Source: a virus (taxonomy: Duplodnaviria > Heunggongvirae > Uroviricota > Caudoviricetes). From it: DNA of 10,500 nt. This document shows, piece after piece, positions 3,481-10,500 of this stretch; the first letter of the stretch is position 1, and each line of letters begins with the position of its first letter. The notes under the pieces are model-generated. The model searched no databases. It saw only the letters and a program-made list of their open reading frames with translations, and was not told where the DNA came from. A program made the translations under genes and the position numbers. Where the stretch lies: the IMG/VR virus record IMGVR_UViG_2703718869_000008, positions 1-10,500 of that record. The stretch is one strand, 5' to 3'.

Positions 3481-4107
3481 CTAGAGTTCGTATTGAACTC
3501 CTTTGACTACACCAATGATGAGGCAATTACCATTGATCGGGATGTTGGGGTACCGGGGATTTAATGGCACTAAAAACTTTTGAGGGCCATCGATAACTAA
3601 TTTTTTTACTGTGGCTTCGTTTGTTCCATCAAGTCTAGCGATGACTATTTTTCCATGCCGGGGTTCTGCATCAGGATCTACAATCACTGTTGCGCCTTCT
3701 GGTATTGTTGGGAGGCCGTTAGGGTTAGTCATGGAGTCGCCTTTAACCTCCAATGCAAATGAGTTATCACCAATCTTTAATGATGTATCTACCCACTTGT
3801 CTACTTCACTAAACACTTCTGCTGTCCTGCACTCAGTAAACTGCCCAGCCTGAACCCACGAGATTACAGGAACTCTGCGCATGTTTGTGACGAGTTTGCC
3901 TTCAAACTCCGCACCATAAAGAATGTAATCTATTGACGTATTGAAGAACTTCGCTAATTTTGAAAGTGCTTCCCCTCCAGGGACATTGATGTCTTTCTCC
4001 CAGTACCCCACAGCAACGTCACTTACTCCACAAAATTTACCCAATTCTTTCTGGGACGTTCTGGTAACTCTTCTCAGAGCTTTTATACGCTGACCAACCG
4101 TTTCCAT
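3481..4107 (-). CDS. cI: Phage CI-type repressor (N-terminal XRE-family HTH plus C-terminal S24 LexA-like autopeptidase domain)
   Basis: 208 aa. N-terminal HTH (QKELGKFCGVSDVAVGYWE), GDSM serine motif and downstream KK lysine motif typical of RecA-stimulated self-cleaving repressors. Divergent from a cro-like gene. Confidence 0.9.
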   Translation of the reverse strand: METVGQRIKALRRVTRTSQKELGKFCGVSDVAVGYWEKDINVPGGEALSKLAKFFNTSIDYILYGAEFEGKLVTNMRRVPVISWVQAGQFTECRTAEVFSEVDKWVDTSLKIGDNSFALEVKGDSMTNPNGLPTIPEGATVIVDPDAEPRHGKIVIARLDGTNEATVKKLVIDGPQKFLVPLNPRYPNIPINGNCLIIGVVKGVQYEL

Positions 4108-4204: not shown

Positions 4205-4405
4205 ATGACGACTGACGATATCGAAAGCTACTTCGGCAGCATTGAGAAAGTTGCTGCTTTTTTCGGCATAACAACTGAAGCCGTTTATCAGTGGCGAAAC
4301 CGTCCTGGCCAGTTAATTCCAAAAGGACGTGCAGCAGAGGCTGCATATAGAACTTGCGGACGGTTGCCATTTAAACCTGAGCTTTATGAAAAATCTAATG
4401 GATAA
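4205..4405 (+). CDS. cro: Cro-like small HTH regulator (Cro/YdaS-type)
   Basis: 66-aa ORF divergent from cI, GGAGG RBS, central HTH-like segment (VAAFFGITTEAVYQWRNR). Position and size match cro. Symbol is positional/functional, not a lambda Cro sequence match. Confidence 0.75.
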   Translation: MTTDDIESYFGSIEKVAAFFGITTEAVYQWRNRPGQLIPKGRAAEAAYRTCGRLPFKPELYEKSNG

Positions 4406-4442: not shown

Positions 4443-5027
4443 GTGGGTAAAGAACCTGAATGGAAAGTTGATAAGCAACCAGCATGGCTGGTGGCAGCAA
4501 TACGAAGAACGATTGCTGATTTACCTCATGGCTATGAGGAAGCAGCAGAAATTCTTGGTTTGTATAAATCTGATGATATCACCCCAGCAAAAGATCAATT
4601 GCATAACAGACTGCGTAGCGGTGGGGATCAAATTTTTCCACTTGAGTGGGCCATGGTTTTACAGGATGCCAGTGGTACCAGGCATGTAACGGATGCAATA
4701 GCCCGTCGTAGTAATGGGGTGTTTGTGCCGCTGGTGGTCATTGATGACATTGACAATGGTGACATTAATCAGCGGCTGATGGAGTCAATAGAATGGATTG
4801 GCAAGCATTCCCAGTACTTACGCAAGGCAACTGCTGATGGAGTTATTGACCAAGCTGAGCGTGAGCAAATCGAAGAGAACAGCTACCAAGTAATGGCGAA
4901 GTGGCAGGAGCATTTAACACTGTTATTTCGTGTTTTTTGTGCGCCGGAAAAGAGTAACGCCCGCGAGTGTGCAGCTCCGGGCGTCGTGGCGTCGATTGCT
5001 TCTGGTTGTGGAGAAACTAACGCATGA
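4443..5027 (+). CDS. Hypothetical early regulator in the cII position (possibly CII/YdaT-like); start uncertain
   Basis: Track ORF 4329..5027 overlaps cro in another frame. In-frame GTG at 4443 is preceded by GAGGG-N7; alternatives are ATG 4386 or 4398 without a good RBS. Stop overlaps the next start (ATGA). Function inferred only from position. Confidence 0.55.
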   Translation: MGKEPEWKVDKQPAWLVAAIRRTIADLPHGYEEAAEILGLYKSDDITPAKDQLHNRLRSGGDQIFPLEWAMVLQDASGTRHVTDAIARRSNGVFVPLVVIDDIDNGDINQRLMESIEWIGKHSQYLRKATADGVIDQAEREQIEENSYQVMAKWQEHLTLLFRVFCAPEKSNARECAAPGVVASIASGCGETNA

Positions 5028-5860
5028 ACAGTTTAACGGCAAATAACCGTTTGTCGCAACAGCTGGTGTTCAGTGTCGCTGAACACCTGTTGTTACGGCA
5101 TGAATGCAGATTACCAAATCACCTGGCTGTAAGTAACCACAGAGAACTTTACCTGACTGTGGGGGGCGAGTTGTGCTGGAACTTAACCGCTGGTTTCGTG
5201 ACGGAAGAGGGCTTTATGTCCATGTTATTCGTTGGGAGCCAGAAACACAGCGCGTTATCTATCTTCGCAAAGACTACCCGCATGAGTGCTTTAGTCCTTT
5301 GTGGAAATTCAGGCGTGATTTTGTTGAGTGTGAAGGACCACCAGCACATTGATTCTGCCATTCCGGGACGTTACACTGTTCAGGCACCTTATAAAGCGGG
5401 TGTCGGGATTGGCGTCCTGGAATTGCATACGGCGACAATTGGCGCGTTAGCGTCTTTTTTGTTGCTACAACTCAGCTATACCCAAATTATGGTGGGCTGG
5501 GTGGGGGCACCGAAAGGTGCGCCGGTTTCCGTATGCGCCGGTTACGCCAACCCTGCTCAGTTCACCACCAGCGAAATTGGCGTTTCCGGTGGTGGAAGTT
5601 ATCCATTGCATACGGAGGCTGCCATCATGGCTACTGTCCCAGCCCTCTCTCGTCTGAATGATGAAGACTTACATAAACTCAGTTATGTAACAACTGCACT
5701 ACGTGCTCTGCGCAAGGTAACTCTTTCGGATCCGCAGGCGCATCAGGTTTTGGTAGAAACCCTTCTTAACTTGCAGGCTGAACGTATTCGTCTGGCGGAT
5801 AAGGCTAATTTTCATATTCACCGTCTCCTGAATATCAGCGGAGGGCATCGTCATGCTTAA
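5024..5860 (+). CDS. Hypothetical protein (278 aa), unknown function
   Basis: Long stop-free frame; ATGA overlap with the upstream gene and ATGCTTAA overlap with the downstream gene. C-terminal 75 aa look clearly protein-like, but the middle is compositionally odd and an alternative frame is also open (see findings). Confidence 0.5.
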   Translation: MNSLTANNRLSQQLVFSVAEHLLLRHECRLPNHLAVSNHRELYLTVGGELCWNLTAGFVTEEGFMSMLFVGSQKHSALSIFAKTTRMSALVLCGNSGVILLSVKDHQHIDSAIPGRYTVQAPYKAGVGIGVLELHTATIGALASFLLLQLSYTQIMVGWVGAPKGAPVSVCAGYANPAQFTTSEIGVSGGGSYPLHTEAAIMATVPALSRLNDEDLHKLSYVTTALRALRKVTLSDPQAHQVLVETLLNLQAERIRLADKANFHIHRLLNISGGHRHA

Positions 5861-6089
5861 TCCGTTGATCCTCAATATTTGCCGTTTGCTTCAGCGTAAA
5901 AAAACATCAATTCCTACAGTTGGGCAGTGGTACACCACGCCTGCAGGGCATGTTCTACGTGTCAGCCTGGTTGACCGTGAATGTCAGAAGGTGATTTGTG
6001 AACCGCTGGGCCGTAATTACCGCGTCAGTATGCCGCTTATAGCCTTTCGCTCCGGAAAAAACATGAAGCATCTCGGAGGTGCAGCATGA
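5853..6089 (+). CDS. Hypothetical small protein (78 aa)
   Basis: GGAGGG-N7-ATG RBS and translational coupling on both sides (overlaps upstream stop; ATGA overlap with the initiator gene). Confidence 0.6.
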   Translation: MLNPLILNICRLLQRKKTSIPTVGQWYTTPAGHVLRVSLVDRECQKVICEPLGRNYRVSMPLIAFRSGKNMKHLGGAA

Positions 6090-6904
6090 GTATGGAGCTG
6101 ATGGTTAAAGCGATGAAAATTCGAGTGGGTAATCCATTGCGAAAACTGGTTCTGATCAAGCTGGCTGATAATGCCAGCGATCAGGGTGAGTGCTGGCCCA
6201 GCTACCAGCATATTGCTGACCAGTGCGAGATTAGCAAACGTTCTGTGATGAATCATATTGCGGCCCTTTGTGATTCCGGGCTGGTAAAAAAAGTCACCCG
6301 GAAAGGTGAAAAAGGTAACTCAAGTAATATCTATCTCCTTCATCTTGATGGTGCAGGAGATTCACTAGGGGGTAGTGCAAATAATTCACTATCTAGTGCA
6401 GCAAATTCACCAGGTAGTGCAGGAGTTGCACCAGGGGGTGGTGCAGGAGATTCACCCAGAACCAGTCACTCTTTTGAACCAGTCAAAGAACCAGTCAATG
6501 AACCAATAGCTGTTGGTGCATCTGCTGATGAGTCCGTGCGAGTTCGTTCAAACCGACCGGAATACTCTCCGGAGTTTGAGCAGGCATGGCTGGCATACCC
6601 CAAACGTGCTGGTGGCAATTCAAAATCTGCAGCCTTCAAAGCCTGGAAAGCTCGTTTGAATGAGGGGGTAAAACCCGAAACCATGCTGGAAGGTGTGAAA
6701 CGCTACGCGGGCTGGGTATCTGCGATGGGTAACAGCGGCACACAATTTGTGAAACAGGCTGTCACGTTCTTTGGTCCGGATCGTCATTTCGAAGAATCCT
6801 GGGAAGTTCCTGCGGTATCTGCAGCCAGACGCGAGGACCCGTACTTCAAAGCCAGTTACGACAACGTGGACTACAGCCAGATCCCGGCAGGATTCAGGGG
6901 GTGA
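6086..6904 (+). CDS. Phage replication initiator (lambda O-like organisation: N-terminal HTH, internal iteron-encoded Gly/Ser/Ala linker, C-terminal domain)
   Basis: GGAGG-N7-ATG. N-terminal HTH segment (LVLIKLADNASDQGECWPSYQHIADQCEISKRSVMNHIAALCDSGLV) typical of phage replication initiators. The middle of the gene carries tandem iterons, as in lambda O. Not the lambda O sequence itself. Confidence 0.72.
   Translation: MSMELMVKAMKIRVGNPLRKLVLIKLADNASDQGECWPSYQHIADQCEISKRSVMNHIAALCDSGLVKKVTRKGEKGNSSNIYLLHLDGAGDSLGGSANNSLSSAANSPGSAGVAPGGGAGDSPRTSHSFEPVKEPVNEPIAVGASADESVRVRSNRPEYSPEFEQAWLAYPKRAGGNSKSAAFKAWKARLNEGVKPETMLEGVKRYAGWVSAMGNSGTQFVKQAVTFFGPDRHFEESWEVPAVSAARREDPYFKASYDNVDYSQIPAGFRG
6347..6506 (+). 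repeat. Putative replication origin: five 15-bp iterons GTGCA-N5-T(T/G)CAC at 21-24 bp spacing, then three to four GAACCAGTCA repeats
   Basis: Seen directly: iterons start at 6351, 6375, 6396, 6417 and 6441 (first and fifth identical: GTGCAGGAGATTCAC). GAACCAGTCA occurs at 6459, 6476 and 6488 with a degenerate copy at 6500. Located inside the initiator gene, analogous to ori-lambda within O. Confidence 0.55.
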
Positions 6905-6906
6905 TC

Positions 6907-7395
6907 ATGAGTCTTTTGAATGAAGTTCAGAAATTCATTGAAGCCCATCCGGGGTGTACTTCCGGAGACATTGCGGATGCTTTTGCAGGTTACTCACGGC
7001 AGCGCGTTCTGCAGTCAGCAAGCAAGTTACGTCAGAGTGGGCGTGTGGCTCACCGTTGTGAAGGAGATACACGCAGACATTTCCCGCGCCTGACTGAGAG
7101 AGCGCAGGAACCGGAACCACAACCAGTTCGAGAAACCAGACCTGTGCGCAATTTCTATGTCGGCACTAACGATCCACGGGTGATTTTGTGCCTGACCCGC
7201 CAGGCTGAAGAACTGGAGTCCAGGGGCTTATACCGTCGTGCTGCAACCGTGTGGATGGCGGCATTCCGTGAAAGCCACTCCCAGCCAGAACAAAACAATT
7301 TTCTGGCGCGTCGTGAGCGGTGCTTACGGAAAAGCAGCAAGCGCGCTGCATCGGGTGAAGAGTGGTATCTGTCAGGGAATTACGTGGGGGCTTAA
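6907..7395 (+). CDS. Putative PerC/Pch-family transcriptional regulator with extra N-terminal domain
   Basis: GGGGG-N5-ATG at 6907 (track start GTG 6901 overlaps the upstream stop). C-terminal AEELESRGLYRRAATVWMAAF resembles the PerC signature (LE-x-GL-W/Y-RRAA-x-W) as recalled. Stop overlaps the next start (TAATG). Family assignment is tentative. Confidence 0.5.
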   Translation: MSLLNEVQKFIEAHPGCTSGDIADAFAGYSRQRVLQSASKLRQSGRVAHRCEGDTRRHFPRLTERAQEPEPQPVRETRPVRNFYVGTNDPRVILCLTRQAEELESRGLYRRAATVWMAAFRESHSQPEQNNFLARRERCLRKSSKRAASGEEWYLSGNYVGA

Positions 7396-8048
7396 TGAGT
7401 AATAAATATTGCCAGGCGCTGGTGGAACTGCGGAACAAACCAGCCCATGAACTGAAGGAAGTGGGCGATCAGTGGCGCACGCCGGACAACATTTTCTGGG
7501 GAATTAACACCCTGTTTGGCCCGTTTGTTCTGGATCTGTTTACTGACGGTGATAACGCCAAATGTGCCGCGTATTACACGGCGGAAGATAACGCGCTGGC
7601 GCATGACTGGTCAGAACGTCTTGCGGAGCTTAAAGGTGCTGCCTTTGGTAATCCCCCATACAGCCGCGCCAGTCAGCATGAGGGGAAATACATCACTGGC
7701 ATGCGTTACATCATGAAGCATGCCAGTGCCATGCGTGATAAAGGCGGGCGCTATGTTTTCCTGATCAAAGCTGCCACCAGCGAAGTGTGGTGGCCGGAAG
7801 ATGCAGATCATATTACTTTTATTCGCGGGCGTATTGGTTTTGAACTGCCTGTCTGGTTTATCCCGAAAGACGAGAAGCAGGTACCGACAGGAGCTTTTTT
7901 CGCTGGTGCTATTGCTGTTTTTGACAAGACCTGGAAGGGACCGGCAATCAGCTACATTGGGCGCGATGAACTTGAGGCATGTGGTGAGGCGTTTCTGGCG
8001 CAGGTTCGCCAGCAGGCGGAAAAACTGGTCAGGGAGATGGCTGCATGA
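7395..8048 (+). CDS. Phage-type DNA N6-adenine methyltransferase (Dam family), orphan
   Basis: GGGGG-N4-ATG at 7395 (track ORF starts upstream at 7362 in the same frame). Motifs WRTPD, FVLDLFTD and catalytic NPPYS are characteristic of the phage Dam family. No adjacent restriction endonuclease gene. Confidence 0.85.
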   Translation: MSNKYCQALVELRNKPAHELKEVGDQWRTPDNIFWGINTLFGPFVLDLFTDGDNAKCAAYYTAEDNALAHDWSERLAELKGAAFGNPPYSRASQHEGKYITGMRYIMKHASAMRDKGGRYVFLIKAATSEVWWPEDADHITFIRGRIGFELPVWFIPKDEKQVPTGAFFAGAIAVFDKTWKGPAISYIGRDELEACGEAFLAQVRQQAEKLVREMAA

Positions 8049-8371
8049 CGACATTAACTCAATGCCAGCAGCAGGTGCTGGATATGCTGATTTCTTATCA
8101 GAAAGAGCGTGGCTTTCCGCCAACCAATCAGGAGGTGGCAACCATGCTGGGATACCGTTCAGTGAATGCAGCGGTAGAGCATCTTCGCGCACTGGAGAAA
8201 AAAGGCGTCATCACGATAAAGCGTGGCGTGGCCCGGGGGATAACGCTTCATACCGCGGTGAAGGACGACGACAGCGAGGCGGTCGGGATTATCCACTCAC
8301 TGCTTGCCGGTGAGGAAAACGCAAGGCTGCGTGCAACCCACTGGTTACATGAGAGGGGCCTGAAAGTATGA
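8045..8371 (+). CDS. LexA N-terminal DNA-binding-domain homolog lacking the S24 peptidase/cleavage domain
   Basis: 108 aa. N-terminal ~70 aa align closely with E. coli LexA residues 1-70 as recalled (MTTLTQCQQQVLDMLISYQKERGFPPTNQEVATMLGYRSVNAAVEHLRALEKKGVI vs [56 protein letters not shown]). Recognition-helix residues NAA-EHL are conserved; there is no Ala-Gly cleavage site or Ser/Lys dyad. ATGA overlaps on both sides. Confidence 0.8.
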   Translation: MTTLTQCQQQVLDMLISYQKERGFPPTNQEVATMLGYRSVNAAVEHLRALEKKGVITIKRGVARGITLHTAVKDDDSEAVGIIHSLLAGEENARLRATHWLHERGLKV

Positions 8372-8763
8372 AGCTGATCCTGCCTTTTCCGCCCAGCGTG
8401 AACACGTACTGGCGACACCCCAACAAAGGGGCGTTTGCTGGTAAGAGCCTGATAAGCGCGGCGGGGCGCAAATTCCAGAGCGCGGCGTGTGCAGCAATAG
8501 TTGAGCAGTTACGTCGTCTGCCAAAACCAACGTCGGCACCTGCATCAGTGGAGATCGTGTTGTTTCCTCCGGATAACCGGATCCGCGATCTGGACAACTA
8601 TAACAAGGCGCTGTTTGACGCCCTGACCCACGCGGGTGTGTGGGAAGACGACAGTCAGGTGAAAAGAATGCTGGTGGAGTGGGGACCGGTTATCCCGGAA
8701 GGGAAGGTCGAGATCACTATCAGTAAGTACGAAAAAGCGAGTTGCAAATTAGCAACTCGGTAA
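8368..8763 (+). CDS. rusA: RusA-family Holliday junction resolvase
   Basis: 131 aa. N-terminal LPFPPSVNTYWRH and central DLDNYNKALFDALTHAGVWEDDSQV match the RusA pattern (PWPPS-N-YYR, DLDN-K---DALT-AG-W-DD-QV). Typical nin-region position. Confidence 0.88.
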   Translation: MKLILPFPPSVNTYWRHPNKGAFAGKSLISAAGRKFQSAACAAIVEQLRRLPKPTSAPASVEIVLFPPDNRIRDLDNYNKALFDALTHAGVWEDDSQVKRMLVEWGPVIPEGKVEITISKYEKASCKLATR

Positions 8764-8808
8764 CGGAATTGAGCAACACCCTAAATTTGGGTATTACCTC
8801 GTTAAAGA

Positions 8809-8828
8809 TACTGTATTTATGAACAGTG
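8809..8828 (+). promoter_or_regulatory. Canonical LexA (SOS) box TACTGTATTTATGAACAGTG upstream of the KilA-N gene
   Basis: Seen directly: CTGT-N8-ACAG with AT-rich spacer, close to consensus TACTGTATATATATACAGTA. Lies about 87 nt upstream of the KilA-N start in an AT-rich intergenic region that presumably holds its promoter. Confidence 0.6.
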
Positions 8829-8914
8829 TATCCTTGATAACTATTAAAAATCGCAGTAAGTTCATCTTGCATCAACGAAAAGGGAGTGCAGTCCCGAAAT
8901 TTGTGGAGAAACCA

Positions 8915-9730
8915 ATGAATCAGTTGCTTGTAATTGATGGCGTTTCTGTGCGCCAGTACTTTGAATCTAACTACTGTCTTAACGACCTTCAGAAAGCTGC
9001 TCTTCTTGCCGCTGGTGAGAATCGCTCCTCCCGTTCGCTGGAAGTTCACGAGTTTATGCGTCGTCCTGAAACGAAGGCTCTTGTGGAATTACTGGAAGAA
9101 GAAACTACGGGAGATTCCCGTAGTATTCCTGTCATCACCATTCAGGGGCGCAATGGTGGGACGTATGTCTGTAAAGAGCTGGTCTATGCATATGCAATGT
9201 GGATCAGCCCGGCATTCAGCTTAAAAGTGATACGTACTTTTGATGCGCTTCATAATTCATCACCAGAAGAAACCACATCCGACAAAATTAAATCCGGGGT
9301 CATTCTGCTTGAATCAGCAGCAAAGACTCTAAATCTGTCAAACTCCTCGAAACTTGGTGCATACCAGAAATTATCAAAGGTAGCTGGTCTTCCTGAACTT
9401 ATGCCGATCTATGCCATTGATGCACCTGCTGATGCGCCAGATGGTTCAAGCCGCCCTACGCTGTCGCTGAGTGCACTGCTGAAGCAGTATGGTATCCGCC
9501 TGACGGCTAATCAGGCATATCACCAGATGGTGAAGCTGGGGATCGTCGAGCAGCGCGAACGATACAGCCGTACCGGGATTAACAACATCAAAAAATTCTG
9601 GTCGCTGACGGCGAAAGGCTGCATGTTCGGCAAGAACATCACCAGTCCCGCAAATCCGCGCGAGACGCAGCCGCATTTCTTCGAATCCCGATTCCCTGAG
9701 CTGTTAAAGCTGCTCGATACCGTTCATTGA
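8915..9730 (+). CDS. KilA-N domain protein (candidate SOS-inducible antirepressor or Kil-like factor)
   Basis: ATG at 8915 with GGAGAA-N5 (track start 8819 lies inside the SOS box and is unlikely). N-terminal region (VSVRQYFESNYCLNDLQKAA...GRNGGTYVCKELVYAYAMWISPAFSLKVIRTFDAL) fits the KilA-N pattern. Gene is lower in GC than its neighbours (moron-like). Confidence 0.75.
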   Translation: MNQLLVIDGVSVRQYFESNYCLNDLQKAALLAAGENRSSRSLEVHEFMRRPETKALVELLEEETTGDSRSIPVITIQGRNGGTYVCKELVYAYAMWISPAFSLKVIRTFDALHNSSPEETTSDKIKSGVILLESAAKTLNLSNSSKLGAYQKLSKVAGLPELMPIYAIDAPADAPDGSSRPTLSLSALLKQYGIRLTANQAYHQMVKLGIVEQRERYSRTGINNIKKFWSLTAKGCMFGKNITSPANPRETQPHFFESRFPELLKLLDTVH

Positions 9731-9737
9731 GGTGACC

Positions 9738-10500
9738 GTGAGAGCACTACTGACCCCTGAAATTGCCCCGCGTATGGGGATCGTATTGTTCAGGCCAGGT
9801 TCAGAGCTGATGCCCCTGTTTATGCAGGGGCGTGTCCTGCTGGAGCCTGAGCCGGAACGTTATTCATCTTTCGCTAGTGGTGCCGTTCCGGCGGCATCAC
9901 AACCGCTGGCGGATGATCCTTCCGTTCGGGCCGTGTTCCGCAATGAGGCAGTGATCCGTCGTGCTGGTGGCGTGGAATGTCTTGAAAGCTGGTTACTTCG
10001 TGAAAAAGGCTGCCAGTGGCTTCATTCCGACTGGCACAGCGAGAACATGACCACAATGCGACACGCTCCGGGTGCAATCCGTCTGTGCTGGCACTGCGAT
10101 AACCAGCTGCGCGATCAGTTCACGGAACGGCTGGAATCAATGGCAACGGATAACTGTGCCCGCTGGGTGTTGTCTGTTGTGCGTCGGGATCTCGGTTTTG
10201 ATGACAGTCACGTTGTGACAATGCCGGAACTGTGCTGGTGGCTGATTCGTAATGACCTGGCGGATGCCTTACCGGAAAGTGCAGCCCGTAAGGCACTGAG
10301 ATTACCGAAGCCTGTTGTGCCGTCTGTCACCCGGGAAAGTGACCTTGTGCCTTCGGTTCCTGCCACCAGCATCATCCAGGATAAAGCGAAAAAGGTGCTG
10401 GCGCTGAAAGTGGATCCGGAGTCGCCGGAGTCTTTTATGTTACGCACCAAACGTCGCCGCTGGGTTAATGAAAAGTACACGCGCTGGGTTAAGACGCAGC
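9738..10500 (+). CDS. Cys/His-rich hypothetical protein, partial (possibly DUF968-like); ORF continues past the right window edge
   Basis: Hand translation from GTG 9738 (GAGGT-N4-GTG) is stop-free to the window end: VRALLTPEIAPRMGIV...CQWLHSDWH...CWHCDNQ...MLRTKRRRWVNEKYTRWVKTQ. Absent from the ORF track because it has no stop. DUF968 assignment is from memory of a similar RRRW-x-NEKYT-x-WV segment; low certainty. Confidence 0.5.
   Translation, partial: MRALLTPEIAPRMGIVLFRPGSELMPLFMQGRVLLEPEPERYSSFASGAVPAASQPLADDPSVRAVFRNEAVIRRAGGVECLESWLLREKGCQWLHSDWHSENMTTMRHAPGAIRLCWHCDNQLRDQFTERLESMATDNCARWVLSVVRRDLGFDDSHVVTMPELCWWLIRNDLADALPESAARKALRLPKPVVPSVTRESDLVPSVPATSIIQDKAKKVLALKVDPESPESFMLRTKRRRWVNEKYTRWVKTQ

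What the first reader, a model, noticed from the sequence alone, without database searches (positions are those of the whole stretch)
8045..9730. Cleavage-domain-less LexA homolog encoded next to an SOS-box-controlled KilA-N gene
The 108-aa protein at 8045-8371 keeps the LexA DNA-binding domain, including the recognition helix, but has no S24 autopeptidase domain, so it cannot be inactivated by RecA-stimulated cleavage. About 440 bp downstream, a near-consensus SOS box (8809-8828) precedes a low-GC KilA-N gene. The phage also carries a classical cleavable cI. This suggests a second, phage-owned layer of SOS-type control: the LexA mimic could hold the KilA-N gene (a possible antirepressor or host-killing factor) or host SOS genes repressed even when host LexA is cleaved, or act as a dominant-negative competitor. 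I am not aware of this pairing being characterised.
Basis: partly seen in the sequence, partly recalled or inferred. Interest (0 to 1): 0.8.

Follow-up and report, generated by a model that had tools for sequence, protein, structure and literature searches.

The report
Uncleavable LexA-like phage protein, SOS-boxed neighbour
A lambdoid E. coli prophage encodes a small protein with LexA's DNA-binding domain but no self-cleaving domain, and 440 bp downstream has a strong LexA operator in front of a KilA-N gene; both are real, but they are separate mosaic pieces rather than a conserved pair, and whether the protein binds SOS boxes is untested.

Summary
ORF 8045-8371 encodes a 108-aa protein ("LexA'") with only the LexA winged-helix domain: Pfam 3e-19, 51% identity and 1.0 A rmsd to E. 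coli LexA, and no S24 domain. Two predicted C-terminal helices replace that domain. TACTGTATTTATGAACAGTG (8809-8828) scores 22.1 bits on a LexA matrix, within the range of genuine operators. It lies in a 151-bp non-coding spacer before KilA-N (8915-9730).

The proposed pairing is only partly supported.
- The LexA' gene occurs in 2233 of 5426 complete E. coli genomes, but the SOS-boxed KilA-N allele (mosaic segment 8740-9157) occurs in 187.
- Most LexA' phages, such as SfV and Stx2a/2c phages, join rusA to kilA-N with a 20-bp gap and no box.
- About 7% of boxed loci lack LexA'.

Precedents exist. GIL01 gp6 is a truncated phage LexA homologue that activates a promoter at a non-SOS site. Gifsy prophages carry LexA-boxed cassettes in the same region.

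The most likely reading has two parts. Host LexA controls an allele-specific promoter feeding kilA-N, DUF968 and Q. LexA' is a RecA-insensitive, delayed-early DNA-binding regulator whose targets may or may not be SOS boxes. Four of LexA's five contact residues are kept; Glu44 is lost throughout the short family. I found no published characterisation of the family.

The parts
3481..4107 (-). cI-type repressor (HTH_3 plus Peptidase_S24), RecA-cleavable type; context only
   Evidence: Pfam S24 1.6e-27 and HTH_3 3.5e-09. The translation shows AG, GDSM and VKKL motifs.
7395..8048 (+). Phage Dam N6-adenine methyltransferase. Its stop overlaps the LexA' start (ATGA).
   Evidence: Pfam Dam 9.9e-46. 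Start taken from the RefSeq annotation of the identical FRIK944 locus. Sequence.
8045..8371 (+). LexA': 108-aa LexA-type winged-helix DNA-binding domain plus a two-helix C-terminal module, with no S24 domain. Its stop overlaps the rusA start (ATGA).
   Evidence: PHROG 362 at 4.5e-59. NCBI names it 'LexA family transcriptional regulator'.
8368..8763 (+). RusA Holliday-junction resolvase
   Evidence: Pfam RusA 6.4e-15.
8740..9157 (.). Allele-specific mosaic segment absent from SfV-type relatives. It covers the last 24 nt of rusA, the spacer with the SOS box, and the first 81 codons of kilA-N.
   Evidence: blastn against SfV aligns window 4897-8739 and 9158-10500 only. The N-terminal part of KilA-N is diverged and the C-terminal part is nearly identical.
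8738..8759 (.). Palindrome CGAGTTGCAAATTAGCAACTCG at the rusA 3' end. It looks like a terminator only on the minus strand, where CTTTTTCG follows it.
8764..8914 (.). Non-coding rusA-kilA-N spacer, 37.7% GC
   Evidence: An 11-bp indel in relatives rules out coding from the ATG at 8819. GC content.
8809..8828 (.). SOS box (LexA-operator-like) TACTGTATTTATGAACAGTG
   Evidence: 22.1 bits, 0 of 500 shuffles reach it. Invariant in E. coli and Shigella copies; SfIV has ...CAGTA, 23.7 bits.
8834..8862 (+). Best sigma-70-like promoter in the spacer: TTGATA, 17 bp, TAAGTT. The predicted start is near 8869-8870. The SOS box ends 6 bp upstream of the -35 hexamer.
   Evidence: My own weight-matrix scan gives 10.2, joint fifth best (tied) in the whole window. 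The same scan ranks a site before cro first and the site just upstream of isrK third. The stricter consensus tool did not report it.
8882..8895 (+). Conserved stem-loop GGGA-GTGCAG-TCCC, 20-33 nt before the kilA-N ATG. It is present in both kilA-N alleles with a constant (G/T)TGCAG loop.
   Evidence: Covariation count: 85% of cells paired against 30-49% with slid partners, and 0 of 500 shuffles reach the score.
8915..9730 (+). KilA-N domain protein, 271 aa: N-terminal KilA-N domain, helical linker, and an unassigned C-terminal domain
   Evidence: Pfam 1.6e-15. PHROG 129 at 1.8e-108. AF2 pLDDT 76. No significant PDB match.
9738..10500 (+). DUF968 (HNH-like) gene, cut by the window end. In the source genome it is followed after 13 bp by antiterminator Q.
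   Evidence: Pfam DUF968 5.7e-32. Gene order and spacing in FRIK944.

Best explanation
There are two separable features in the delayed-early (nin) region of a lambdoid prophage.

**1. LexA'.** LexA' is a member of a very common enterobacterial phage family: a LexA-derived winged-helix DNA-binding domain fused to a short helical hairpin that replaces the S24 protease and dimerisation domain. It is translationally coupled to dam and rusA in the PR operon. I infer that it is made after infection or induction, that it is insensitive to RecA, and that it dimerises through the C-terminal helices and binds a palindromic operator. Its targets are most likely LexA-type CTG-N10-CAG sites, because it keeps Ser39, Asn41, Ala42 and Glu45. 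This would let the phage re-impose repression on SOS-box promoters, both phage and host, once host LexA has been destroyed.

**2. The 8809-8828 box.** The box is an operator for host LexA in an allele-specific 418-bp cassette. It abuts a plausible rightward promoter (TTGATA, 17 bp, TAAGTT) that would transcribe kilA-N, DUF968 and probably Q. In this allele that block would therefore become directly inducible by DNA damage from the prophage state, like the LexA-boxed nin-region operons of Gifsy prophages.

The neighbourhood of the two features reflects module synteny, not an obligatory partnership.

**Shown:** domain content, operator quality, non-coding spacer, distribution, separability. **Inferred:** DNA target of LexA', dimerisation, promoter activity, LexA binding.
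For: **LexA' identity and placement**
- Domain and fold.
- Four of the five LexA DNA-contact residues listed in PMC3091678 are kept.
- ATGA overlaps with dam and rusA.
- The gene order methylase, LexA', RusA, KilA-N, DUF968, Q is kept in Citrobacter, Kluyvera, Cedecea and Leclercia.

**The box**
- 22.1 bits, far above background.
- SOS-like sites occur at the homologous position, -114 to -117 from the ATG, in diverged relatives at 7.9-17 bits.
- A promoter-like site lies next to the box.
- kilA-N, DUF968 and Q are separated by only 7 and 13 bp.
- Gifsy precedent: a LexA box 1.3 kb downstream of the replication genes, preceded by a palindrome (PMC3121763).

**Other strong SOS boxes near LexA'**
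- 43 of 80 LexA' loci have at least one box of 20 bits or more within 6 kb.
- In an Enterobacter element, LexA' itself lies behind an SOS-boxed promoter.
Against: - No binding or expression data exist for either feature.
- Glu44 is replaced by Val here and is never Glu in the short family. Glu45 and Ala42 vary in more distant members. This points to diversified rather than LexA-identical specificity.
- The one characterised truncated phage LexA homologue, GIL01 gp6, binds a different palindrome and activates transcription.
- The box lies upstream of the -35 hexamer rather than over the core promoter, and the consensus promoter tool found nothing in the spacer.
- The box is weak or absent in several relatives that keep LexA'.
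- The LexA matrix was built from operator sequences recalled from memory.
- With LexA' in 41% of E. coli genomes, strong constitutive SOS-box binding in lysogens would make them SOS-defective. That is not known to be the case, so any such activity must be confined to lytic growth.
Confidence: 0.5

Rival explanations
1. LexA' and the boxed kilA-N form a dedicated pair: LexA' keeps kilA-N repressed, or gives it only a pulse of expression, after host LexA is cleaved. This would add a phage-owned layer of SOS control aimed at this gene.
For: The two features are 440 bp apart in one transcription direction. 82 of 88 boxed phage loci also carry LexA'. Four of five contact residues are conserved.
Against: Co-occurrence is explained by linkage, because rusA always lies between them. 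About 92% of LexA'-positive E. coli genomes lack this box, and so do 76 of 80 IMG/VR LexA' loci. Boxed loci without LexA' exist, with Dam running directly into RusA. Relatives in other genera keep LexA' with a degenerate site or none.
Confidence: 0.15
2. LexA' is a gp6-like phage-specific regulator. The LexA fold has been re-targeted to a phage operator that is not an SOS box, and it activates or represses a phage promoter, for example one for late or accessory genes. On this reading the nearby SOS box concerns host LexA only.
For: GIL01 gp6 is a truncated LexA homologue that binds GaCACAnnTGTGaC and activates P3. Glu44 is lost family-wide and residues 42-46 vary. LexA alpha-3 substitutions are known to change specificity (PMC4951493). 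Many short LexA-DBD-only proteins occur in unrelated phages.
Against: No candidate non-SOS operator was found; my search for one was limited to a palindrome list. The close family keeps Ser39, Asn41, Ala42 and Glu45 and is 51% identical to the host LexA domain. Strong SOS boxes are frequent in LexA' phages.
Confidence: 0.3
3. The SOS box controls a leftward small RNA, alone or in addition to kilA-N. This would be a transcript of roughly 75-115 nt, antisense to the rusA 3' end, running from about 8803-8840 to the minus-strand terminator-like hairpin at 8759-8738 and its T run.
For: Minus-strand RNA 8842-8728 folds into three hairpins at -35.3 kcal/mol, z = -5.7, with 0 of 200 shuffles as stable; the last hairpin is followed by CUUUUUCG. 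Minus-strand promoter-like sites are TTGATG, 17 bp, GATTTT (score 8.1) and TTATCA, 19 bp, TACAGT, whose -10 lies inside the box.
Against: Palindromes fold equally well on either strand, so the z-score is not strand-specific. There is no Rfam match even at E <= 1. The promoters are weak. All copies are about 97-100% identical, so conservation cannot be tested.
Confidence: 0.15
4. The box is a fortuitous or decaying palindrome with no regulatory role, and kilA-N is expressed only by read-through from PR.
For: The site is degenerate or absent in several relatives. SfV-type alleles manage without it.
Against: It scores 22.1 bits against a next-best 9.3, and 0 of 500 shuffles reach it. It is invariant in the E. 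coli and Shigella copies aligned here; one of about 100 IMG/VR copies carries a disabling C-to-G change. It sits in an AT-rich non-coding spacer beside a promoter-like site.
Confidence: 0.05

Closest known systems
GIL01 (Bacillus thuringiensis tectivirus) gp6, a truncated LexA homologue (Fornelos et al. 2018, PMC6182141)
   Same: It is phage-encoded, consists of the LexA N-terminal winged-helix domain without the S24 domain, is therefore RecA-insensitive, and acts in a phage whose genes also carry host LexA boxes.
   Different: gp6 is essentially the bare domain, whereas LexA' adds a conserved C-terminal helical hairpin of about 40 aa. gp6 binds a non-LexA palindrome and activates the late promoter. 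The host and phage types are unrelated (Firmicutes tectivirus against enterobacterial lambdoid). I did not compare the two sequences directly.
Host LexA (E. coli), and its non-cleavable mutants such as lexA3(Ind-)
   Same: 51% identity and 1.0 A rmsd over the DNA-binding domain. Ser39, Asn41, Ala42 and Glu45 are kept. Functionally it would resemble an Ind- repressor.
   Different: There is no S24 catalytic or dimerisation domain. Glu44 is Val. The aligned Ala-Gly is not conserved in the family. It scores below the lexA equivalog cut-off.
LexA-controlled nin-region operons of Gifsy prophages (dinI-antirepressor; Lemire et al. 2011, PMC3121763), and Tum of coliphage 186 and AntC of N15
   Same: A LexA box lies downstream of the replication genes in a lambdoid prophage, preceded by a palindrome, and makes an accessory cassette directly inducible by DNA damage.
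   Different: The cargo here is a 271-aa KilA-N protein followed by DUF968 and Q, not a DinI homologue plus a small antirepressor. This phage's cI is of the cleavable S24 type, so an antirepressor is not required. The palindrome has no T run on the plus strand.
Phage or plasmid modulators of the SOS response: GIL01 gp7, phage DinI homologues, Listeria AriS (PMC9043618)
   Same: They share the conceptual outcome that a mobile element damps or reshapes the host SOS response.
   Different: Those proteins act on LexA or RecA, or by other routes. None is a LexA-fold DNA-binding protein.

Membership tests
LexA repressor (TIGR00498 equivalog) | N-terminal LexA-type winged-helix DNA-binding domain | tested here: met
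   Pfam PF01726 3e-19. PDB 1lea 7e-16. Foldseek 3jso rmsd 1.0 A over 67 residues.
LexA repressor (TIGR00498 equivalog) | C-terminal S24 serine-lysine autopeptidase and dimerisation domain | tested here: not met
   No PF00717 hit. Only profile positions 1-91 of 203 are matched, at 71 bits against a cut-off of 110.95. The protein ends at residue 108.
LexA repressor (TIGR00498 equivalog) | Conserved Ala-Gly cleavage site | tested here: not met
   An AG (LLAGEE) aligns with LexA VAAGEP. It lies at the end of a predicted helix. It is not conserved in the short family, where the aligned residues are ER, TR, SG, DD, AE and AC.
LexA repressor (TIGR00498 equivalog) | Base-contacting residues Ser39, Asn41, Ala42, Glu44 and Glu45 | tested here: inconclusive
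   Four of five are kept and Glu44 is Val. Position 44 is never Glu in the short family, and positions 42 and 45 vary in distant members.
Truncated phage LexA homologues (GIL01 gp6 type) | [quoted passage not shown] | tested here: met
   Many such short proteins appear in viral structure and sequence libraries.
Truncated phage LexA homologues (GIL01 gp6 type) | Binds a phage-specific palindrome and activates a late promoter | not testable with these tools
   Needs binding and transcription assays. No candidate site was identified.
Gammaproteobacterial SOS box (LexA operator) | CTGT-N8-ACAG palindrome with an AT-rich spacer, scoring within the range of genuine operators | tested here: met
   It scores 22.1 bits, against 12.8-26.7 for the 26 training operators, which I recalled from memory.
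Gammaproteobacterial SOS box (LexA operator) | Overlaps or abuts a promoter so that LexA binding blocks transcription | tested here: inconclusive
   The box ends 6 bp upstream of the best -35 hexamer (TTGATA, 8834). Alternative weak promoters overlap it. The consensus scan found none.
Gammaproteobacterial SOS box (LexA operator) | Bound by LexA, with the downstream gene induced by DNA damage | not testable with these tools
   No ChIP or expression data were accessible.
LexA-controlled prophage antirepressor cassette (Gifsy, 186 or N15 type) | The cargo is an antirepressor acting on a non-cleavable repressor | tested here: not met
   cI here has an S24 domain. The KilA-N protein has no antirepressor (ANT, AntA or KilA-C) domain hit and no informative structural match.
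KilA-N domain proteins (PF04383) | KilA-N domain | tested here: met
   1.6e-15 and 57 bits against a cut-off of 23.8. PHROG 129.

The most novel reading that the evidence does not exclude
LexA' is an uncleavable LexA surrogate. It is carried by prophages in about 41% of complete E. coli genomes, including Stx2a/2c, Cdt-I and Shigella serotype-converting phages. During lytic growth it would re-occupy SOS boxes after host LexA has been destroyed. This would shut down the host SOS regulon and SOS-triggered rival elements, and turn the phage's own SOS-boxed cassettes into pulse-expressed genes. Those cassettes are kilA-N-DUF968-Q here, and in relatives the box inside cI and the box at the start of the methyltransferase gene.
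Probability: 0.25. Interest if true: 0.8.

Novelty: new variant of a known kind. Interest (0 to 1): 0.5.

Why it matters
If LexA' binds SOS boxes, a very common prophage gene would let phages override the host DNA-damage response in E. coli, Shigella and relatives. That would bear on Shiga-toxin phage induction, cross-talk between co-resident prophages, colicin release and SOS mutagenesis.

Separately, a LexA-controlled promoter placed just before kilA-N, DUF968 and Q would give DNA damage a route to the late-gene antiterminator that does not pass through cI.

Both ideas can be tested with simple binding and reporter assays. If LexA' instead has its own operator, it is a second, independent case after GIL01 gp6 of phages recycling the LexA fold as a private regulator.

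Tried and rejected
- **Trans-cleavage idea.** LexA' has LLAGEE aligned to the LexA cleavage site VAAGEP, so I considered it as a substrate for cleavage in trans. I rejected this because the AG is not conserved in the family and lies at a predicted helix end.
- **ORF from the ATG at 8819** (303 aa, start inside the box). Rejected, because an 11-bp indel in relatives breaks that frame and RefSeq starts the gene at the site equivalent to 8915.
- **KilA-N as antirepressor or defence protein.** There is no Pfam domain in the C-terminal half even at E <= 10. The only PADLOC hit is a local KilA-N-type match. There is no NCBIfam hit. The AF2 model has no PDB match at E <= 0.001, only weak winged-helix-like hits. 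The function remains open.
- **Rfam search of the spacer at E <= 1.** Nothing found.
- **Consensus promoter tool.** No site in the spacer; I used my own weight-matrix scan instead.
- **Origin of the boxed cassette.** The three other exact matches to the 20-mer are unrelated: two are coding sequence and one is an unrelated GC-rich locus.
- **Literature.** Six of the eight searches used looked for a characterised enterobacterial LexA-like phage protein or a LexA-controlled KilA-N gene and found none.
- **Not attempted.** I did not do a phylogenetically corrected comparison of SOS-box density in LexA'-positive and LexA'-negative lambdoid phages. The loci already fetched were selected on these features and would be biased.
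Full report
**What the window is.**
The window is the early-right region of a lambdoid prophage. Segment 8740-9140 is 100% identical to chromosomes of E. coli O157:H7 FRIK944, E2863 and others. The gene order, is:
- cI with HTH_3 plus Peptidase_S24 (3481-4107, minus strand)
- cro (4205-4405)
- a YmfL/CII-like gene
- an 'Ash' ORF
- an HTH_36 replication-type gene (6086-6904)
- PerC (6901-7395)
- Dam (7395-8048)
- the 108-aa ORF (8045-8371)
- RusA (8368-8763)
- a 151-bp gap
- KilA-N (8915-9730)
- DUF968 (9738 onward)

In the source genome an antiterminator Q gene follows DUF968 after 13 bp. Dam/LexA' and LexA'/rusA overlap by ATGA. The block from 6086 to 8763 therefore reads as one tightly packed operon downstream of PR.

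**The 108-aa protein.**
- Pfam finds LexA_DNA_bind over residues 1-65 (3e-19) and nothing else significant.
- The lexA equivalog model matches only its first 91 of 203 positions, below the cut-off.
- phmmer against the PDB gives the E. coli LexA N-terminal domain at 7e-16. The alignment runs through LexA residue 86.
- The AF2 model (pLDDT 81) is a winged helix-turn-helix followed by two helices at 74-87 and 93-103.
- The winged helix superposes on DNA-bound LexA (3jso) at 1.0 A with 51% identity.
- Of the five LexA residues reported to contact DNA (Ser39, Asn41, Ala42, Glu44, Glu45; PMC3091678), four are kept and Glu44 is Val.

The protein cannot autocleave.

**The family.**
- Close relatives of 106-108 aa occur in E. 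coli, Shigella, Salmonella, Citrobacter and Hafnia. NCBI names them 'LexA family transcriptional regulator'. The family is PHROG 362.
- An exhaustive profile search finds more distant members of the same length and architecture at 41-51% identity, with the C-terminal helices conserved.
- In all of these, position 44 is hydrophobic or small (V, A, T, F, L) and never Glu. Glu45 becomes G, D or L in three of them, and Ala42 becomes T or G in two. This variation is unexpected for a strict mimic of the invariant enterobacterial LexA.
- The AG dipeptide that aligns with the LexA cleavage site is not conserved.
- The gene is very common. It is present in 2233 of 5426 complete E. coli genomes, with up to four copies. 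It occurs in SfV, SfII, SfIV, mEp460, the Cdt-I phage, and Stx2a, Stx2c and Stx2k phages.

**The box.**
- CTGT-N8-ACAG occurs at 8811-8826, against 0.16 matches expected per window.
- On a matrix built from 26 E. coli operators, which I recalled from memory and which should be rebuilt from a curated set, the 20-mer scores 22.1 bits. That is close to recA and sulA. The next best site in the window scores 9.3, and 0 of 500 shuffles reach the observed value.
- The other CTGT-N8-ACAG, at 5127-5142, scores only 7.0 bits.
- The spacer is non-coding. Relatives carry an 11-bp insertion between the box and the ATG at 8915, which breaks the frame of the ATG at 8819. RefSeq annotates the 271-aa product.

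**Mosaic structure and separability.**
- Against SfV, the window aligns at 4897-8739 and 9158-10500 only. Segment 8740-9157 is therefore an alternative allele. It covers the rusA tail with a palindrome, the spacer with the box, and the first 81 codons of kilA-N.
- SfV-type phages join rusA to kilA-N with 20 bp and no box.
- The two KilA-N alleles are 67% identical overall, diverged in the N-terminal domain and nearly identical in the C-terminal half.
- The boxed allele is in 187 of 5426 E. coli genomes, in 5 phage records, and in 4 of 80 IMG/VR LexA' loci.
- Conversely, of 88 phage-context loci with the exact box and enough upstream sequence, 82 carry LexA' and 6 do not. In five of those six, Dam runs directly into RusA.
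- In Citrobacter, Kluyvera, Cedecea and Leclercia the order methylase, LexA', RusA, about 100 bp, KilA-N, DUF968, Q is kept.
- At the homologous position, -114 to -117 from the ATG, these and other relatives show SOS-like sequences of varying quality. Examples are TGCTGGATAAATATTCAGAT (17.0 bits), TGGTGGATAAATGAACAGTG (13.3), AGGTGGATAAATGTCCAGCT (12.7) and GGGTGTATGCATGAACAGTG (7.9); some have nothing.

I read this as a site with some evolutionary persistence that is at full strength only in the E. coli and Shigella allele. I do not read it as evidence that LexA' and the box need each other.

**How the box may work.**
- A simple sigma-70 weight-matrix scan ranks a site just before cro first and a site just upstream of the Rfam isrK hit third, which gives some trust in it. 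It ranks TTGATA, 17 bp, TAAGTT (8834-8862) joint fifth in the whole window.
- The box ends 6 bp upstream of that -35 hexamer, which is not the classic overlapping position.
- The stricter consensus tool reports nothing in the spacer.
- Because kilA-N, DUF968 and Q are almost contiguous, such a promoter would give DNA damage a cI-independent route to Q.
- The arrangement parallels Gifsy prophages. There, a LexA box 1.3 kb downstream of the replication genes, preceded by a palindrome, drives a dinI-antirepressor operon (PMC3121763).
- A rival reading is a leftward small RNA. The minus strand of 8842-8728 folds into three hairpins (z = -5.7), ending in a hairpin followed by a T run, and weak minus-strand promoters exist. 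But palindromes fold on both strands, Rfam has no match, and the copies are too similar to test conservation.

**Does LexA' act on SOS boxes?**
This remains open.

In favour:
- The contact residues that are kept.
- 43 of 80 LexA' loci contain at least one box of 20 bits or more within 6 kb. There are two recurrent types. One lies inside the linker codons of an XRE/S24 repressor gene. The other lies at codons 3-9 of a DNA methyltransferase gene between Q and the lysis genes.
- 78% of loci with those boxes and enough flanking sequence carry LexA', although this is confounded by common descent.
- In an Enterobacter element a 135-aa LexA' lies about 440 bp behind an SOS-boxed promoter, followed by RusA, DUF968 and a Q-like gene.

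Against:
- The family-wide loss of Glu44 and the variable recognition helix.
- The only characterised truncated phage LexA homologue, GIL01 gp6, binds a different palindrome and activates transcription.
- Many LexA' phages have no strong box in the region examined.

**KilA-N.**
It belongs to PHROG 129, annotated as 'transcriptional regulator'. It has a KilA-N domain, a helical linker and a C-terminal domain with no Pfam, NCBIfam or informative PADLOC match. Its AF2 model (pLDDT 76) has no significant PDB neighbour, only weak winged-helix-like hits. Nothing supports the antirepressor or killer labels specifically.

**Verdict.**
The LexA' family is annotated but, as far as six of the eight literature searches used could show, not characterised. 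It is a new architectural variant, a LexA domain plus a helical hairpin, of a known kind (truncated phage LexA homologues). The boxed kilA-N cassette is a new member of the class of LexA-controlled prophage cassettes. The specific pairing is not a conserved unit.

Noticed in passing
window 5384-5460 and 5485-5572 (+): There are Rfam gathering-level matches to the isrK Hfq-binding sRNA (58.9 bits) and the C4 antisense RNA (80.7 bits). Both lie inside the mechanical 'Ash' ORF 5024-5860. A strong promoter-like site, TTGATT, 17 bp, TACACT, sits at 5349-5377 just upstream of isrK.
   Followed up: partly
window 8882-8895; also L001 4443-4458 and relatives: A stem-loop with a constant (G/T)TGCAG loop lies 20-35 nt upstream of the kilA-N start in both alleles and in several genera. 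The stems differ: GGGA/TCCC, GGCGG/CCGCC, CGGGG/CCCCG. 85% of cells are paired against 30-49% with slid partners, and 0 of 500 shuffles reach the covariation score, though independent changes are few. Its function is unknown. The window's 11-bp deletion removes its lower stem.
   Followed up: partly
L005 851-870 (E. coli O104:H4 2011C-3493 prophage) and many IMG/VR loci: A 25-bit SOS box, TACTGTTTTTACATACAGTA, lies inside the coding sequence of an XRE/S24 cI-type repressor gene, in the linker codons (...SNTVCKNSIG...). It recurs in 25 of 80 LexA' loci when its one-base variant is included.
   Followed up: partly
L001 7652-7671 (SfV orf48); L005 10460-10479: A 22-24-bit SOS box covers codons 3-9 of a DNA methyltransferase gene that lies between Q and the lysis genes. 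In SfV this gene is flanked by annotated terminators, so it looks like a moron (an autonomously expressed accessory cassette) under LexA control.
   Followed up: partly
L096 5467-5486 and 5908-6315 (Enterobacter sp. TMH.L2): The SOS box AACTGTACATTCATACAGTG follows directly after a TAATAAT -10-like sequence. It lies about 440 bp upstream of a 135-aa LexA' that is followed by RusA, DUF968 and a Q-like gene, with no cI, cro or replication genes upstream. Here LexA may be the direct repressor of the whole block.
   Followed up: partly
L535-L544, and window 7395-8048: The gene immediately upstream of LexA' is always a DNA methyltransferase, but of different families: Dam PF05869, MethyltransfD12 PF02086 (in Kluyvera separated from LexA' by a 72-aa ORF), and a C5-methylase plus D12 fusion. 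In Pantoea an MT-A70 methylase is followed by an unrelated 156-aa protein in the LexA' position.
   Followed up: no
window 8728-8842 (-): Three consecutive palindromes (8738-8759, 8772-8798, and 8803-8834 around the SOS box) give a very stable fold (z = -5.7). On the minus strand the fold ends in a terminator-like hairpin with a T run, so this is a possible SOS-controlled small RNA antisense to the rusA 3' end.
   Followed up: partly
proteins P0129, P0132, P0148, P0151 and others: Several database proteins of 140-350 aa contain two separate stretches matching the LexA DNA-binding domain. They may be single-chain pseudo-dimers of the LexA fold.
   Followed up: no
window 5127-5142: There is a second exact CTGT-N8-ACAG (CTGTAAGTAACCACAG), but it scores only 7.0 bits on the LexA matrix and lies inside the Ash ORF. 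It is probably not an operator.
   Followed up: yes
L496, 117 nt upstream of kilA-N: One IMG/VR copy of the box carries a C-to-G change in the right half-site (TACTGTATTTATGAAGAGTG, 15.3 bits). This is a natural operator-down variant that could be compared with the wild type.
   Followed up: no
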